64,000 nucleotides of DNA. Origin: Dehalococcoidia bacterium. Lineage in GTDB: Bacteria > Chloroflexota > Dehalococcoidia > Lucifugimonadales > JADFKI01. A program made the translations under genes and the position numbers. Positions 24,623 to 61,006 of the stretch are shown one piece after another. The stretch spans positions 568,944-632,943 of the forward strand of contig OZ245324.1 of assembly GCA_965225795.1 (NCBI GenBank), in the 5' to 3' direction. The notes under the pieces are model-generated. The model did not search any database and had not been told where the DNA came from. It saw only the letters and a program-made list of their open reading frames with translations. Within the stretch, counting starts at the first letter, position 1; each line of letters starts with the position of its first letter.

Positions 24623-25465
24623 CTAAATGATGAGAGGCGTGCCCTCGCGGTTCGCCCACTCGCCCATGGAACCGTCGTAGTTTCGCGCGCGGTCATAGCC
24701 AAGAAGCTTAAGTACGAAAACTCCGTGCGCCGCACGGATGCCACCCTGTCAATAAGTTATGATTTCCTTATCCGGCGTCGCTCCCACTTCTTCGAGCATC
24801 GCCCTAAGTTCATCAGCCGGCTTGATGGTCTGATGGCTGTCGTCGGTGATGAAATTCAGCCATTCGAGGTGTACCGCTCCCGGTATGCGTCCCGCCCGCG
24901 CGTTGCCTCGAGAATTGCTGCCGTCCCATTCGCCATCGGAGCGCACATCTAGGAACACGACGTCATCATTACCCACGTTGGCGACGCCGTGGTCAAGAGT
25001 ACATACCAGGTCAGGGTTCGGCTGAGGTGTAAATGTAACTTCTGAAGTGGTCGTCGTACTAATGGAAGTGGGGCGTCCTTCGTCGTACCATTTCTTCCAA
25101 CCGCCGTTGAGCACCTTGACATTGGTATGACCATGGTAGTTCAGCACCCACCAGAGGCGCGTTGACCACAGTGCGCCGTTGCTGTCATACGCTACGACTA
25201 GGTGGTCGTCGCCAATGCCCATTCGCTCCATCACTTCCTTCATAGTGTCGGGTGGAGCGACTAATGGATAGCCACGAGGATCGTCATCATAACCCGGCTC
25301 TTTGATGTAGTGATGAACCGGTATGCCGACGGCATTCCTGATATGCGCACGTCCGTAGGCGTCATACGGGTCACAATCAACTATTCGAATCGTCGGGTCG
25401 TCAAGCCTGGCTTCGAGCCAGTCTGCTGCGACCAGAATATCCGGATTTGCGTATCCCTGATTCAT
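24623..25465 (-). CDS. Two-domain rhodanese (thiosulfate/3-mercaptopyruvate sulfurtransferase-like) with selenocysteine at the catalytic position; in-frame TGA at 24749-24751.
   Basis: Track ORF 24749-25465 stops at TGA. The same frame continues as QGGIRAAHGVFVLKLLGYDRARNYDGSMGEWANREGTPLII to TAG 24623-24625. This completes the active-site loop (U-Q-G-G-I-R) and the canonical rhodanese C-terminus. Confidence 0.75.
24722..24738 (-). promoter_or_regulatory. Candidate bacterial SECIS hairpin for the rhodanese gene.
   Basis: The mRNA UCCGUGC-GGC-GCACGGA starts 11 nt after the UGA. Confidence 0.4.
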
Positions 25466-33970: not shown

Positions 33971-34660
33971 TTAGTTGGCAATGATGTCTTCGAAAAGATC
34001 TGCCCAACTTTCGTAGTCGCCCTTCCCAAAGCCATAGCGGTGCGTAATCGTTCCGTCCCTGCTAATTGCGACTTTAGAAGCCTGGGTATAGATTCTTAGT
34101 GCATCCAGCATGCCTTCGTCCGGATGGGCTACCGGCCAAGGCAATCCCTTGCCTTCCCTGTCGGCCTCCAATTTTTCTAAGCTTTCGGACAGGTCAGTAC
34201 CTACGAGGTAGAATGCGATCTGATCAGTGTAGTTTGCACCGATCTCATCCTGAATGCGCCGCAACTCGACGCGGCAGGTTCCTCACCAGGTAGTGTGGAA
34301 GTAAATGAAGGCAGGCTTGCCTTCATCGAAAATTGCCGCAGATGTGACCCGGCTGCCATCCAGCAGGCTCATGCCGAATTCCGGGACGTGCATTCCAACT
34401 TTGTAGCCGACTTCCACTGGACCGGCTTCTGGCTCGCTCTCTACAGCCTCAATTGCCTTTTGGGGGGCGGAGTCAGCTTGCGCCATTTCCGCGGCCTGTG
34501 TTGGCACCGCCACCAGCTCCGACGCAGGCACAACTTTGGGTGCGGGAGGCACGGAAATGCTCTCAGCGGTCTGAGAGGCGGGTGCCGCGCCGCATCCGAA
34601 CAATATCCCTATCGTCGCTCCAAGTGTCAGCAGAAGGGATAGTGCAAATTTAGTGCTCAT
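33971..34660 (-). CDS. Thioredoxin-fold (TlpA/ResA-like) thiol:disulfide oxidoreductase lipoprotein with a W-U-G-T-C redox motif; in-frame TGA at 34283-34285.
   Basis: Track ORFs 34283-34660 and 33971-34264 share one frame: ..KPAFIYFHTTW-U-GTCRVELRRIQDE.. It has an N-terminal lipobox (LFGCG). Confidence 0.75.
34258..34275 (-). promoter_or_regulatory. Candidate bacterial SECIS hairpin for the thioredoxin-fold gene.
   Basis: The mRNA GCCGC-GUCGAGUU-GCGGC starts 8 nt after the UGA. Confidence 0.35.
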
Positions 34661-56323: not shown

Positions 56324-56887
56324 CTAAGCCTTGGCCTTTGCATTCATGAGCCAGTGCTGGTTTCTGGCGGGGCTGTCGAGCCATGTTTCTACGTTCTCCT
56401 GACGCTCTTCGGGCACTTCGACGCCAAGACCGTCTGCGAGGCGGGTCATGAAGTTGAAGTTGCAGGTGATCAGGACAACGGAGAGGATCTGCTCGTCTGT
56501 CAGGCCGTGCTTACGGAGGGCTGTAACGTCCGATTCCTGCATCCTGGTGGGTTCGCGCGTGAGCTTGGTGGCGTAGTCGAGCATCGCGCGGGTCTGCGTG
56601 TCGAGGTCGGCGTTGCGGTAGTCGTGCATGACATGGCTTGCCAGTTCCGGGTCGTTGGAGGCGTAACGGAGAAACTCTCCGTGAGCCATTGTTCAAAAGC
56701 GGCATTGGTTCTGAACTGAGACTGCGGTGGCGATCGCCTCCTCCTGCGTGCGGGTGAGTGCGGACGAGCCGAAGGTGATGGCGTTGTTCAGGTCATTGAC
56801 CGCCTTCATTGCGGAGGGGTTGATGGACATCACATTGATGACATTCGCCGAGTGCAGAGGTTCGTCGGCTTCACGAATCCAGGACAT
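56324..56887 (-). CDS. AhpD-like / carboxymuconolactone-decarboxylase-family peroxidase-related protein with a C-R-F-U redox motif; in-frame TGA at 56693-56695.
   Basis: Track ORFs 56693-56941 and 56324-56689 share one frame: ..EAIATAVSVQNQCRF-U-TMAHGEFLR.. The likely start is ATG 56887 (MSWIRE), which follows an AAGGAAAC RBS. Confidence 0.75.
56666..56682 (-). promoter_or_regulatory. Candidate bacterial SECIS hairpin for the AhpD-like gene.
   Basis: The mRNA ACGGAGA-GUU-UCUCCGU starts 11 nt after the UGA. Confidence 0.4.
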
Positions 56888-56950
56888 TTTCTGTTTCCTT
56901 TCAGATAGGTTTGTAAGTAAGTCGGTATGTTGGTGGGGCATTCACTGAGA

Positions 56951-57066
56951 CACCCCCATCCTAGCCTTCCCCCGTCGAGGGGGAAGGGACTTCGGGCCTG
57001 CATTTATGGACACTTTTGCCATTTACCTACCCCTATCAGCCCGTGAAGGGGGAAGAGGCATTTTTC
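56951..57066 (+). repeat. GC-rich hairpin repeat element (CACCCCCATCCTAGCCTTCCCCC-GTCGA-GGGGGAAGG plus a degenerate second module).
   Basis: Same consensus as 57879-57960, 60961-61006 and, inverted, 496-560. Confidence 0.7.
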
Positions 57067-57878: not shown

Positions 57879-57960
57879 TCACCCCCACCCCAGCCTTCCC
57901 CCATCAAGGGGGAAGGGGTTTTTGCCCTCACCCTAACCCTCTCCCAGGGGGAGAGGGGAT
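57879..57960 (+). repeat. GC-rich hairpin repeat element, two tandem modules.
   Basis: CCTTCCCCC-ATCAA-GGGGGAAGG is followed by CCCTCTCCC-AGG-GGGAGAGGG. Both are preceded by TCACCC(C/T)A(C/A)CCC leaders. Confidence 0.7.
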
Positions 57961-60960: not shown

Positions 60961-61006
60961 TCACCCCCATCCTAACCTTCCCCCTTTACGGGGGAAGGGA
61001 TTTTTT
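60961..61006 (+). terminator. GC-rich hairpin repeat element acting as a plus-strand terminator.
   Basis: TCACCCCCATCCTAA-CCTTCCCCC-TTTAC-GGGGGAAGG-GA-TTTTTT. Confidence 0.65.

What the first reader, a model, noticed from the sequence alone, without database searches (positions are those of the whole stretch)
56324..56887. AhpD-like (carboxymuconolactone decarboxylase family) protein with a CxxU redox motif
..TQEEAIATAVSVQNQCRF-U-TMAHGEFLRYA.. reproduces the V-S-x-x-N-x-C-x-(Y/F)-C-x-x-x-H signature of peroxidase-related AhpD-type proteins, with the second Cys encoded by TGA 56693-56695. A clean 7-bp hairpin (ACGGAGA-GUU-UCUCCGU) starts 11 nt after the UGA. The N-terminal 18 codons of the track ORF are probably not translated, because ATG 56887 has an RBS and gives the typical MSWI start.
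Basis: partly seen in the sequence, partly recalled or inferred. Interest (0 to 1): 0.7.

Follow-up and report, generated by a model that had tools for sequence, protein, structure and literature searches.

The report
Known AhpD-like selenoprotein gene in SAR202
This is an ordinary member of a long-known family of small bacterial redox enzymes. One active-site cysteine is replaced by selenocysteine, encoded by a UGA "stop" codon that a conserved RNA hairpin just downstream causes to be read through.

Summary

- **Gene:** a 187-codon gene lies on the minus strand at 56887..56324. It has one in-frame TGA at 56693-56695, which is codon 65.
- **Family:** with U read as C, the protein scores 128 bits on NCBIfam TIGR01926 (peroxidase-related enzyme; cut-off 81.8).
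- **Active site:** the TGA aligns with the second Cys of the CxxC motif in solved structures (3C1L, 2PFX, 2PRR, 6K40) and in Cys-containing homologues.
- **Conservation of the codon:** all 60 TGA-carrying homologues examined have TGA there, never TAA or TAG. They include about 52 SAR202/Dehalococcoidia species genomes and six lineages from other phyla.
- **Hairpin:** the 17-nt hairpin at 56682..56666 meets every criterion of the published bacterial SECIS model. It shows compensatory base changes, and it is the stretch of lowest synonymous variation in the whole gene.
- **Start codon:** ATG 56887 is the conserved start.
- **Organism:** the same window holds two more candidate selenoprotein genes. 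Sister genomes are already listed with 46-49 selenoproteins.
- **Prior knowledge:** "AhpD-like protein (COG2128/TIGR01926, CxxU)" has been a catalogued selenoprotein family since the 2005 Sargasso Sea study.

Verdict: correct, well supported and already known. Its main practical value is to show that gene callers still truncate this gene almost everywhere.

The parts
56324..56887 (-). Complete coding sequence of the AhpD-like (TIGR01926, CMD-fold) selenoprotein: 187 codons including Sec65, plus the TAG stop at 56326-56324.
   Evidence: Translation. TIGR01926 128.3 bits against cut-off 81.8. Pfam CMD E 2.9e-10. PDB homologues 3C1L, 2PFX, 2PRR and 6K40 at E 5e-26 to 1e-20. Full-length tblastn matches in 50+ SAR202 genomes.
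56885..56887 (-). Start codon ATG, giving the M-S-W-I N-terminus.
   Evidence: The N-terminus M-[SPA]-W-I is conserved in all SAR202 homologues, and there is no conservation upstream of it.
56895..56900 (-). Shine-Dalgarno-like AAGGAA, with its GGA 8 nt upstream of the ATG.
   Evidence: Sequence. The equivalent aaagga/ggagg/aggag stretch occurs at the same distance in the homologues.
56888..56941 (-). In-frame upstream extension of the mechanical ORF (18 codons from ATG 56941). It is probably not translated.
   Evidence: ORF list. The stretch is not conserved and is interrupted by in-frame stops in many homologues.
56693..56695 (-). UGA codon 65, read as selenocysteine. It is the second position of the C62-R-F-U65 redox motif.
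   Evidence: TGA in 60 of 60 TGA-carrying homologues, never TAA or TAG. The column aligns with Cys in 8 Cys-homologues and in the PDB structures.
56666..56682 (-). Bacterial SECIS hairpin ACGGAGA-GUU-UCUCCGU: 7-bp stem, 3-nt loop starting with G-U, 10-nt spacer after the UGA. It lies in codons H69-R74.
   Evidence: Folds. RNAalifold independently predicts the 6-bp core. 96.5% of cells are paired against 41-63% when the partners are slid, and 3 pairs change on both sides. It is the lowest synonymous-diversity window of the gene.
56681..56740 (-). Active-site helix-turn-helix segment carrying the AhpD-type proton-relay residues: E50 (56740-56738), C62 (56704-56702), F64, U65 and H69 (56683-56681).
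   Evidence: In the 71-sequence alignment E50 is kept in 71 of 71, C62 in 68 of 71 and H69 in 70 of 71. The relay residues are defined in PMC3141380.

Best explanation
The gene encodes a single 187-residue all-helical thiol/selenol oxidoreductase. It belongs to the AhpD-like / carboxymuconolactone-decarboxylase-fold family (TIGR01926, COG2128). The second residue of its C-x-x-C redox centre is selenocysteine.

**Translation.** During translation, UGA codon 65 is not read as stop. The 17-nt hairpin that starts 11 nt downstream is a bacterial SECIS element. By analogy with characterised bacterial systems, it recruits SelB·GTP·Sec-tRNA(Sec) to the ribosome, so Sec is inserted and translation continues for another 122 codons.

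**Chemistry.** The mature protein carries the AhpD-type proton-relay set: Glu50, Cys62, Phe64 (Tyr in most homologues), Sec65 and His69. It most likely cycles between a selenol/thiol form and a Cys62-Sec65 selenenylsulfide form. In doing so it would either reduce an oxidised peroxiredoxin-type partner or reduce peroxides directly, which would serve antioxidant defence in this SAR202-type Dehalococcoidia bacterium.

**Shown here:**
- the gene structure;
- family membership;
- the Sec/Cys column correspondence;
- conservation and covariation of the hairpin.

**Inferred:**
- SelB-dependent insertion;
- the selenenylsulfide cycle;
- the physiological substrate.
For: **One gene**
- The frame is open and conserved on both sides of the TGA in about 52 SAR202 species genomes and in six other lineages: an unclassified bacterium, Planctomycetota, Chloroflexia, Promineifilaceae, Vicinamibacteria and Acidobacteriota. 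Polyangia also carries the TGA, with a different hairpin.

**The codon**
- The codon is TGA in 60 of 60 TGA-carrying homologues.

**Family**
- TIGR01926 is above its cut-off.
- PDB relatives match at E of about 1e-26, with query C-R-F-[U] facing C-Y-Y-C, C-F-Y-C and C-L-Y-C.
- Cys homologues in Roseomonas/Falsiroseomonas and in an archaeon have C-x-Y-C at the same columns. Oerskovia keeps only the second Cys (S-T-Y-C).
- The relay residues E50, C62 and H69 are essentially invariant (definition in PMC3141380).

**SECIS**
- All four constraints of the published model are met: loop 3 nt, stem 7 bp, G as the first loop base, 17 nt from UGA to loop, and -8.4 kcal/mol.
- The top pair switches A-U, G-C and C-G through coupled changes in codon 71 and in the third position of codon 72. 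Pair 17-27 flips G-C to C-G in the Acidobacteriota.
- Synonymous diversity is 0.21 in codons 69-74 against a gene mean of 0.50, the lowest 6-codon window in the gene.
- In a related clade with Gly (GGC) instead of TGA, the same peptide HGGFLR is encoded without any hairpin.

**The organism uses Sec**
- The same window holds two further TGA-bridged genes, with the TGA at the catalytic Cys position of a Trx/Prx-like protein (W-U-G-T-C) and of a rhodanese (TY-U-QGGIR). Both have downstream hairpins.
- Two sister genomes that carry the orthologue (L023 and L047) are listed in BSepDB with 46 and 49 selenoprotein genes.

**TGA is otherwise a normal stop here**
- About 13 other long ORFs in the window end in TGA.

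**Function of the family**
- The D. radiodurans homologue DR1765 (PDB 6K40) protects against H2O2 in a CxxC-dependent way.
Against: - No selA, selB, selD or tRNA-Sec gene lies in the 64-kb window or in the fetched flanks. The decoding machinery of this particular genome was therefore not seen directly.
- No Rfam family matched the hairpin.
- No ahpC-type partner is adjacent, and the neighbourhood (aminotransferase, SDR, convergent MFS) is conserved only among close relatives. The physiological substrate is therefore open.
- Position 64 is Phe here rather than the Tyr or His of characterised relatives.
- There is no protein-level evidence such as mass spectrometry or 75Se labelling.
Confidence: 0.93

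Rival explanations
1. The UGA is a genuine stop, and the locus makes two products. One is a 64-residue N-terminal peptide. The other is a separate 121-residue protein initiated at ATG 56689, two codons after the UGA, by termination-reinitiation. This is how almost all public gene calls treat it.
For: An ATG lies two codons after the TGA in the window and in most SAR202 homologues (T-M-[AS]-H-G). Nearly all database proteins are 118-121-aa fragments starting at MAHGEF. Some termination at UGA is expected whenever selenium is limiting (general knowledge of Sec decoding).
Against: - The Met is not conserved: the same position reads A-V-A-H, T-L-S-H, T-A-S-H, T-V-S-H, I-R-H-H and L-K-H-H in other TGA-bearing homologues.
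- The split would cut the CxxC...H active site and the CMD domain in two.
- Cys-homologues and the solved structures are single chains across this point.
- The codon is always TGA and never TAA or TAG.
- No Shine-Dalgarno-like sequence precedes ATG 56689.
- The conserved hairpin with covariation has no role in this model.
Confidence: 0.03
2. The UGA is decoded as a standard amino acid (Trp, Gly, Cys or Arg). This would happen through a reassigned genetic code or through near-cognate or suppressor read-through, not as selenocysteine.
For: Three database relatives have a sense codon at this position: TGG (Trp), CGA (Arg) and GGC (Gly). Cys can be inserted by the Sec machinery under some conditions (general knowledge).
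Against: - TGA terminates about 13 other genes in the window at the ends expected from their families, for example PriA and the MFS transporter.
- The TGG and CGA cases are singletons on contigs of about 1 kb. Each is one point change away from TGA and keeps the hairpin intact, so they look like errors or recent mutants.
- The Gly clade has lost the hairpin.
- The column is Cys in true homologues. The site also carries a canonical bSECIS, which is the signature of Sec rather than of a code change.
Confidence: 0.02
3. The gene is a pseudogene, or the TGA is a sequencing or assembly error for TGC/TGT (Cys).
For: A few orthologues in public MAGs are clearly damaged. L047, L072 and L074 are frameshifted. 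One orthologue (L059/L051) is split by a 10-kb insertion.
Against: The same TGA is present in 60 independent genomes from several phyla. Both flanks are under purifying selection at 58-90% amino-acid identity, and the downstream hairpin is conserved.
Confidence: 0.01

Closest known systems
"AhpD-like protein" selenoprotein family (COG2128 / TIGR01926, CxxU motif). First described in the Sargasso Sea selenoproteome (Zhang et al. 2005, PMC1088965). It appears as "AhpD-like 1" in the GOS survey (PMC2398784) and is listed in the 2026 review PMC13188914 and in BSepDB (PMC13326102).
   Same: It has the same model (TIGR01926 above cut-off), the same CxxU motif with Sec at the second position, and the same SECIS type immediately downstream of the UGA. 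Its marine origin also fits. Sister genomes carrying the orthologue are already among the selenoprotein-richest entries of BSepDB.
   Different: Nothing essential differs. Compared with the solved Cys-homologues, this SAR202 subgroup lacks about 20 N-terminal residues. It also carries a conserved tail of about 30 residues (158-187) beyond the end of the TIGR01926 model. Position 64 is Phe rather than the commoner Tyr.
Solved Cys-containing peroxidase-related AhpD-core proteins: Mlr4105 (3C1L), 2PFX, 2PRR, 2OYO and D. radiodurans DR1765 (6K40).
   Same: Homology is clear (E 5e-26 to 1e-20) over residues 14-158. The V-S-x-x-N-x-C-x-Y-C-x-x-A-H-G active-site segment is aligned column for column. 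DR1765 contributes to H2O2 resistance through its CxxC.
   Different: These proteins have Cys where this one has Sec, and they have longer N-termini. Only about 35-40% of residues appear identical in the printed alignments.
Mycobacterium tuberculosis AhpD (the AhpC reductase; active site Cys130-Ser-His-Cys133 with Glu118 and His137).
   Same: It has the same fold family and the same proton-relay layout: Glu at -12, C-x-x-C, His at +4. In this protein those are E50, C62, U65 and H69. The likely chemistry is a dithiol/disulfide (here thiol-selenol/selenenylsulfide) exchange with a peroxiredoxin, or weak direct peroxidase activity.
   Different: The sequence relationship is very distant. No canonical AhpD equivalog model was hit, only the TIGR00778 core domain. 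The motif sits in a different part of the chain. No adjacent ahpC and no lipoamide-system genes are present.
Bacterial SECIS elements (bSECIS consensus model; E. coli fdhF/fdnG type).
   Same: It is a hairpin inside the ORF directly after the UGA, with a small apical loop starting G-U. The loop lies 17 nt from the UGA, within the 16-37 nt range, and the energy is below -7.5 kcal/mol. From memory of the E. coli literature (not checked here), the 17-nt size and the spacer of about 11 nt also match the minimal fdhF element.
   Different: There is no bulged U, and the loop has 3 nt rather than the larger fdhF loop. There is no primary-sequence similarity to the E. coli elements. SelB binding is untested.
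NF041238 AhpD_rel_CFYUT, the alkylhydroperoxidase-related (seleno)protein ("hypothetical protein 1" of the Sargasso Sea).
   Same: It has a CMD/AhpD-type domain, a CxxU motif and a marine distribution.
   Different: It is a different family. The score is 63.9 bits against a cut-off of 175, and only the C-terminal half of a 357-position model is matched.

Membership tests
TIGR01926 peroxidase-related enzyme = 'AhpD-like protein' selenoprotein family (COG2128) | Whole-protein HMM score above the curated cut-off | tested here: met
   128.3 bits against cut-off 81.8, E 2.6e-37, residues 13-158 on profile positions 29-175 of 178, with U written as C.
TIGR01926 peroxidase-related enzyme = 'AhpD-like protein' selenoprotein family (COG2128) | C-x-x-[C/U] redox motif, with Sec at the column of the second Cys | tested here: met
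   The motif is C62-R-F-U65. The column holds TGA 60 times and Cys 8 times in a 71-sequence alignment. It faces the second Cys in 3C1L, 2PFX and 2PRR.
TIGR01926 peroxidase-related enzyme = 'AhpD-like protein' selenoprotein family (COG2128) | AhpD-type proton-relay residues: Glu 12 residues before the first Cys and His 4 residues after the second | tested here: met
   E50 is kept in 71 of 71 and H69 in 70 of 71. The residue set is as defined in PMC3141380.
TIGR01926 peroxidase-related enzyme = 'AhpD-like protein' selenoprotein family (COG2128) | All-helical AhpD/CMD fold | tested here: met
   This rests on sequence homology to five solved structures at E 5e-26 to 1e-20 covering residues 14-158, and on Pfam CMD above its gathering score. 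No structure prediction was run.
TIGR01926 peroxidase-related enzyme = 'AhpD-like protein' selenoprotein family (COG2128) | Peroxidase or peroxiredoxin-reductase activity | not testable with these tools
   Only literature on the homologue DR1765 is available.
Bacterial SECIS element (bSECIS consensus model, PMC13188914 Fig. 2A) | Apical loop of 3-9 nt on an upper stem of 4-16 bp | tested here: met
   The loop is GUU (3 nt) and the stem is 7 bp. RNAalifold predicts the 6-bp core.
Bacterial SECIS element (bSECIS consensus model, PMC13188914 Fig. 2A) | G in one of the first two loop positions, usually followed by G or U | tested here: met
   The loop starts G-U. Column 21 (G) is invariant in 58 of 58 aligned homologues although it is a third-codon position of Glu, Gly and Ala codons.
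Bacterial SECIS element (bSECIS consensus model, PMC13188914 Fig. 2A) | 16-37 nt between the UGA and the apical loop | tested here: met
   17 nt: a 10-nt spacer plus a 7-nt stem arm.
Bacterial SECIS element (bSECIS consensus model, PMC13188914 Fig. 2A) | Minimum free energy of -7.5 kcal/mol or lower | tested here: met
   -8.4 kcal/mol for the 17-mer and -13.5 for the 45 nt downstream. 50 of 60 homologous 17-mers and 59 of 60 45-mers pass.
Bacterial SECIS element (bSECIS consensus model, PMC13188914 Fig. 2A) | Structure conserved through compensatory change (not part of the model, but the evolutionary test) | tested here: met
   96.5% of cells are paired against 41-63% when slid. 3 of 7 pairs change on both sides (29 cells), and 0 of 500 shuffles reach the covariation score. 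Caveat: the sequences are related, and the hairpin lies in coding sequence.
Bacterial SECIS element (bSECIS consensus model, PMC13188914 Fig. 2A) | Binding by SelB and selenium-dependent read-through | not testable with these tools
   This needs a reporter or binding assay.
Sec-decoding trait in the host genome (selA, selB, selC, selD) | Presence of the four machinery genes in the same genome | tested here: inconclusive
   None is in the 64-kb window or in the flanks of the homologous loci. The rest of the genome is not available. Indirect support comes from two more candidate selenoprotein genes in the window. Sister genomes are also listed with 46-49 selenoproteins.
NF041238 AhpD_rel_CFYUT (seleno)protein | Score above the curated cut-off over the full-length 357-position model | tested here: not met
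   63.9 bits against a cut-off of 175, and only profile positions 175-344 are matched. It is not a member.
Canonical AhpD (M. tuberculosis type, AhpC reductase) | Equivalog-level sequence match and genomic pairing with ahpC | tested here: not met
   Only the generic AhpD core-domain model TIGR00778 is hit (38.3 bits against 27.8). The neighbours are an SDR, a class-III aminotransferase and an MFS transporter. The only AhpC/TSA-fold gene in the window is 22 kb away.

The most novel reading that the evidence does not exclude
In SAR202 this selenoprotein may not be an AhpC-coupled adaptor. It could be a stand-alone selenol-based hydroperoxide or disulfide reductase, tied to the lineage's oxidative metabolism and forming part of an unusually large, compactly encoded selenoproteome.

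Three selenoprotein genes within 32 kb all have a G-first apical loop. The AhpD-like and rhodanese genes also share the same minimal SECIS geometry (10-nt spacer, 7-bp stem, 3-nt loop). That shared geometry would imply a SAR202 SelB with a very small, strict recognition element. Such an element could be used to predict the whole selenoproteome.

In at least one genome the same stretch also serves as the attachment site of an integrase-bearing phage-like element.
Probability: 0.15. Interest if true: 0.35.

Novelty: already known. Interest (0 to 1): 0.15.

Why it matters
The biology is established, so the value is mostly practical.

- **Annotation.** Almost every public protein record for this gene is a 118-121-residue fragment starting just after the UGA. 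Standard annotation therefore still misses the active site of an abundant marine redox enzyme. Any functional or abundance estimate for SAR202 that relies on such calls undercounts its selenoproteins.
- **A teaching example.** The locus shows how an RNA element embedded in coding sequence can be demonstrated purely from comparative data. The evidence is synonymous-site freezing, coupled amino-acid and codon changes, and loss of the hairpin when the UGA is lost.
- **Ecology.** It adds to the picture that deep-ocean SAR202 depend on selenium. No open question is resolved.

Tried and rejected
- **Rfam.** The gathering-threshold scan of the whole window found only tRNA-Asn. A permissive scan of 56500-56800 gave only a chance-level CyVA-1 hit at E 2.5. 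No curated RNA family covers this hairpin.
- **tRNA-Sec.** ARAGORN on the window and on 60 homologous loci found none nearby.
- **Sec machinery.** The 48 long ORFs of the window were annotated with Pfam or NCBIfam. No SelA, SelB or SelD was found.
- **Conserved operon partner.** The aminotransferase-SDR-AhpD-like arrangement with convergent MFS and glyoxalase genes is kept in only about 13 close relatives and not across the family. No functional inference was drawn from it.
- **Cys paralogue.** tblastn against the window found none.
- **Full-length database proteins with W, R or G at the Sec column.** I first suspected gene calling with genetic codes 4 or 25. The DNA shows real TGG, CGA and GGC codons. 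I rejected these as evidence for a non-Sec reading: TGG and CGA are singletons one mutation from TGA with the hairpin intact, and the GGC clade has lost the hairpin.
- **NF041238 membership.** Rejected on score.
- **Minimum free energy as a discriminator.** MFE of the downstream 45 nt does not separate Sec from Cys homologues. The high-GC Cys homologues fold just as strongly, so only the specific hairpin and its covariation count.
- **SAR202 literature.** A search for SAR202 together with "seleno" words found nothing specific. The link came instead from the BSepDB organism table.
- **Not run.** Structure prediction was skipped because solved homologues at E of about 1e-26 already fix the fold.
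Full report
**What is in the sequence**

On the minus strand, window 56887..56324 reads as 187 codons plus a TAG stop, with one internal stop. The internal stop is TGA at 56695..56693 and is codon 65. The mechanical ORF list splits the region in two. One ORF of 82 codons runs 56941..56693. The other, of 121 codons, runs 56689..56324 and starts at an ATG two codons after the TGA.

The hairpin ACGGAGA-GUU-UCUCCGU lies at 56682..56666. Its first base is the 11th nucleotide after the UGA. It is the core of the predicted fold of the surrounding 71 nt: -21.5 kcal/mol, z = -2.0, with 5 of 200 shuffles folding as well. The 17-mer alone folds at -8.4 kcal/mol.

**Which family the protein belongs to**

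All family searches were run with the stop written as Cys.

- The protein matches Pfam CMD (PF02627, E 2.9e-10).
- It matches NCBIfam TIGR01926 "peroxidase-related enzyme" at 128.3 bits against a curated cut-off of 81.8.
- It matches the AhpD core-domain model TIGR00778 at 38.3 bits against 27.8.
- It does not reach the cut-off of the other AhpD-related selenoprotein model, NF041238 (63.9 bits against 175).

Five solved structures match at E 5e-26 to 1e-20 over residues 14-158:

- 3C1L (Mlr4105);
- 2PFX;
- 2PRR;
- 2OYO;
- 6K40 (D. radiodurans DR1765).

In the printed alignments, the query segment avsvqnqcrfCtmahg faces AVSSINHCYYCLTAHG and its equivalents. The TGA column is therefore the second Cys of the CxxC centre.

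A scan of one genome per species returned 79 loci. L001-L059 (plus L064, L072 and L074) are SAR202/Dehalococcoidia MAGs at 57-90% identity. This places the window in that lineage; its G+C content is 54%.

Translating the loci shows the same in-frame stop at C-x-[YF]-* in about 52 SAR202 genomes. It also appears in more distant homologues: an unclassified bacterium, Polyangia, Planctomycetota, Chloroflexia, Promineifilaceae, Vicinamibacteria and Acidobacteriota. The codon is TGA in 60 of 60 and never TAA or TAG.

In a 71-sequence MAFFT alignment the residues break down as follows:

| Position | Residues in the column |
|---|---|
| 65 (the TGA column) | TGA 60, Cys 8, and Trp, Arg, Gly once each |
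| 62 (first Cys) | Cys 68, Ser 3 |
| 69 (His at +4) | His 70 of 71 |
| 50 (Glu 12 residues before the first Cys) | Glu 71 of 71 |

The Cys homologues are Roseomonas/Falsiroseomonas, an archaeon and Oerskovia.

Glu, Cys, Cys and His are the residues described as the AhpD proton-relay system: Glu118, Cys130, Cys133 and His137 in M. tuberculosis, and Glu36, Cys48, Cys51 and His55 in PA0269 (PMC3141380). Oerskovia keeps only the second Cys (S-T-Y-C). That fits the second position being the indispensable one.

**The three sense-codon exceptions**

Two are singletons on contigs of about 1 kb, with TGG and CGA. Each is one point change from TGA and still has an intact hairpin, so they are probably errors or very recent mutants.

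The third represents a separate clade at about 50% identity, with GGC (Gly). It encodes the same downstream peptide H-G-G-F-L-R as CACGGGGGATTCTTGCGC, which cannot form the hairpin. This is a useful natural control: where the UGA is absent, the hairpin is absent too, even though the peptide is the same.

**The hairpin as a SECIS element**

The published bacterial SECIS consensus has four constraints (PMC13188914). The window element meets all of them:

| Constraint | Window element |
|---|---|
| Loop of 3-9 nt | GUU, 3 nt |
| Stem of 4-16 bp | 7 bp |
| G in the first two loop positions, usually followed by G or U | Loop starts G-U |
| 16-37 nt from UGA to loop | 17 nt |
| MFE of -7.5 kcal/mol or lower | -8.4 kcal/mol |

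*Consensus fold and pair counts.* I aligned 58 homologous 48-nt stretches that begin at the TGA. RNAalifold independently predicts the same helix at columns 15-20 with 24-29. For the 7-pair helix, the counts are as follows:

- 96.5% of cells form standard pairs, against 41-63% when the 3' partners are slid by 1-3 columns.
- 3 pairs change on both sides, in 29 cells.
- 0 of 500 shuffles reach the observed covariation score.

*Compensatory changes.* The changes are informative because they cross codon boundaries. The top pair is A-U where codons 71-72 read GAG-UUU (24 sequences). It is G-C where they read GGG-UUC (24 sequences) and C-G where they read GCG-UUG (2 sequences). The synonymous choice in the Phe/Leu codon therefore tracks the amino-acid change in the preceding codon. 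In the Vicinamibacteria and Acidobacteriota pair (L067, L068), a G-C pair is inverted to C-G (GCA...CUG).

*Invariant loop G.* The loop G is a third-codon position of Glu, Gly or Ala codons, yet it is invariant in 58 of 58 sequences.

*Synonymous variation.* A scan of synonymous diversity along the whole gene in 53 SAR202 sequences gives a mean of 0.50. The lowest 6-codon window of the gene starts at residue 69 (H-G-E-F-L-R, the hairpin) and scores 0.21.

*Other lineages.* Two distant lineages (Polyangia and Chloroflexia) have different hairpins a little further downstream. This is consistent with the known diversity of bacterial SECIS elements.

*Caveats.* The sequences are phylogenetically related, so the shuffle control overstates significance. 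MFE alone does not separate Sec from Cys homologues, because the high-GC Cys genes fold strongly anyway.

**Start codon**

All SAR202 homologues begin M-[SPA]-W-I. A purine-rich stretch (aaagga, ggagg or aggag) lies 6-10 nt upstream. The 30 codons before that are not conserved, and in many homologues they contain in-frame stops. In the window, AAGGAA sits at 56900-56895.

**Does this organism decode UGA as Sec?**

No selA, selB, selD or tRNA-Sec is present in the window or in the fetched flanks. Direct evidence for the machinery in this genome is therefore lacking. Three indirect lines are strong.

- *TGA is otherwise an ordinary stop.* About 13 long ORFs with full-length family matches end in it.
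- *My scan for TGA-bridged ORFs found two more candidates in the same window.*
  - One is a lipoprotein-like thioredoxin-fold protein at 34660..33971, with F-H-T-T-W-U-G-T-C.
    - It hits Pfam AhpC/TSA at E 1.8e-9.
    - A 62%-identical metagenomic homologue keeps the TGA, and a distant one has W-A-T-W-C-K-P-C.
  - The other is a two-domain rhodanese at 25465..24623 whose TGA replaces the catalytic Cys (I-I-T-Y-U-Q-G-G-I-R).
    - Read-through completes a 3-mercaptopyruvate-sulfurtransferase-like protein, covering 4-277 of 281 model positions.
    - It also adds a second Pfam rhodanese stretch.
  - Both have hairpins downstream. The rhodanese hairpin has the same 10-nt spacer, 7-bp stem and 3-nt G-first loop.
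- *Sister genomes are already catalogued.* The BSepDB paper lists "Dehalococcoidia bacterium UBA1141" and isolate 10f4566d-... among the ten bacteria with the most selenoprotein genes, with 49 and 46 (PMC13326102). These are the genomes of loci L047 and L023.

**Mechanism**

*Shown:*

- It is one gene of the TIGR01926 family.
- Sec is at the second redox position.
- The AhpD relay residues are intact.
- A conserved SECIS-type hairpin is present.

*Inferred from established knowledge of bacterial Sec decoding:* SelB·GTP·Sec-tRNA(Sec) binds the hairpin as the ribosome reaches UGA65 and inserts Sec.

*Inferred from the AhpD family:* Sec65 and Cys62 form a reversible selenenylsulfide. The protein would either reduce an oxidised peroxiredoxin-type partner or reduce peroxides directly. 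The closest experimentally studied relative, DR1765 (6K40), protects D. radiodurans against H2O2 in a CxxC-dependent manner (PMC8945050). PA0269 shows weak peroxidase activity.

The physiological partner here is unknown. No ahpC is adjacent. The gene order of aminotransferase, SDR, AhpD-like, then convergent MFS and glyoxalase is kept only among about 13 close relatives.

**Rivals**

- *Two separate products with reinitiation at ATG 56689.* The Met is not conserved in other TGA-bearing lineages. The active site and domain would be cut in two. The model gives the hairpin no role.
- *A reassigned code or near-cognate read-through.* TGA stops normal genes here, and the column is Cys in homologues.
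- *A pseudogene or sequencing error.* This is excluded by 60 independent genomes.

Together I give these rivals about 6%.

**Comparison with what is known, and novelty**

"AhpD-like protein (COG2128), CxxU" was reported as a new selenoprotein family with 27 sequences in the Sargasso Sea study, with its SECIS drawn (PMC1088965). It was the fourth most abundant selenoprotein family in the GOS survey: "AhpD-like 1", with 299 selenoprotein sequences against 902 Cys homologues (PMC2398784). The 2026 review lists it under TIGR01926 with the CxxU motif. It is also used as the browsing example in BSepDB.

The window gene is therefore a member of an already described family, in a lineage already recorded as selenoprotein-rich. 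Lineage-specific details are minor:

- The N-terminus is about 20 residues shorter than in the solved homologues.
- A conserved tail of about 30 residues lies beyond the model.
- Position 64 is Phe.

**What remains useful**

In the protein database nearly all close relatives are stored as 118-121-residue fragments starting at M-A-H-G. The mis-annotation is systematic.

**Verdict**

Confidence is 0.93 that this is a SECIS-directed AhpD-like selenoprotein. It is already known, and interest is low (0.15).

Noticed in passing
window 33971-34660 (minus strand); TGA at 34283-34285: A second candidate selenoprotein. It is a 229-codon lipoprotein-like thioredoxin-fold protein with an F-H-T-T-W-U-G-T-C (UxxC) motif. 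With U read as C it hits Pfam AhpC/TSA at E 1.8e-9. A hairpin lies roughly 10 nt after the UGA. A 62%-identical metagenomic homologue (L083/L084) keeps the TGA, and a distant one (L085) has W-A-T-W-C-K-P-C.
   Followed up: partly
window 24623-25465 (minus strand); TGA at 24749-24751: A third candidate selenoprotein: a two-domain rhodanese resembling 3-mercaptopyruvate sulfurtransferase. Its TGA sits at the catalytic Cys position (I-I-T-Y-U-Q-G-G-I-R). Read-through adds 41 codons. That completes the NF008557 model (4-277 of 281 positions) and adds a second Pfam rhodanese stretch. The hairpin UCCGUGC-GGC-GCACGGA has the same 10-nt spacer, 7-bp stem and 3-nt loop as the AhpD-like SECIS. No comparative check was done.
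   Followed up: partly
L059:3001-3240 and L051:2850-3348 (MAG OZ244863.1): The orthologous gene is split by about 10.3 kb of inserted DNA, exactly inside the SECIS hairpin. The left junction reads ...CACGGGGAGTTCC|GGCG and the right junction ...GCTGAGTTCC|TCCGTCACGCC, with a shared core GAGTTCC. The insert starts with a tyrosine integrase (Phage_integrase E 1e-20 plus an Arm DNA-binding domain) and ends with a portal protein and an S78 prohead protease. It is a small prophage-like element that appears to use the most conserved nucleotide stretch of the gene as its attachment site. The middle 4.3 kb was not fetched.
   Followed up: partly
L082:1001-1564 (protein P0060; also P0062): A sister clade at about 50% identity has Gly (GGC) at the Sec/Cys position (C-R-Y-G-A-L-T-H) and no hairpin, although it encodes the same H-G-G-F-L-R peptide. 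A Sec/Cys-to-Gly replacement in a redox centre is unusual. A separate 101-residue CMD-domain gene lies immediately upstream at L082:608-913.
   Followed up: partly
L080:501-1052 and L081:173-727: Two metagenomic singletons carry TGG (Trp) and CGA (Arg) at the Sec codon while keeping the SECIS hairpin intact. They are probably sequencing errors or very recent mutants.
   Followed up: yes
window 56965-56987; also 499-521, 1954-1976, 57894-57916 and 60976-60998: A REP-like palindromic repeat, CCTTCCCCCTCGACGGGGGAAGG, occurs 5 times in the window where 0 are expected by chance. One copy lies 78 nt upstream of the AhpD-like start. Another lies inside the annotated 5' end of the SDR ORF, which suggests that ORF's GTG start at 57931 is called too far upstream. 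The same element, translating as ..PLDGGRLGWG.., appears in the equivalent intergenic spacer of L001-L003.
   Followed up: partly
L047, L072 and L074: The orthologues in these three MAGs, including UBA1141, are frameshifted in the assemblies. They are either pseudogenes or indel errors.
   Followed up: no
window 56324-56416 (residues 158-187): A C-terminal tail of about 30 residues (...E-R-Q-x-x-V-E-x-W-L-x-x-P-A-x-x-Q-x-W-L-M...) is conserved across the SAR202 homologues. It lies beyond the end of the TIGR01926 model and of the solved homologues. The N-terminus is also about 20 residues shorter than in those structures.
   Followed up: no
public protein database: Of the 120 best database relatives, almost all are 118-121-residue fragments starting at the Met two codons after the UGA. 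Automated gene calling systematically truncates this selenoprotein.
   Followed up: yes
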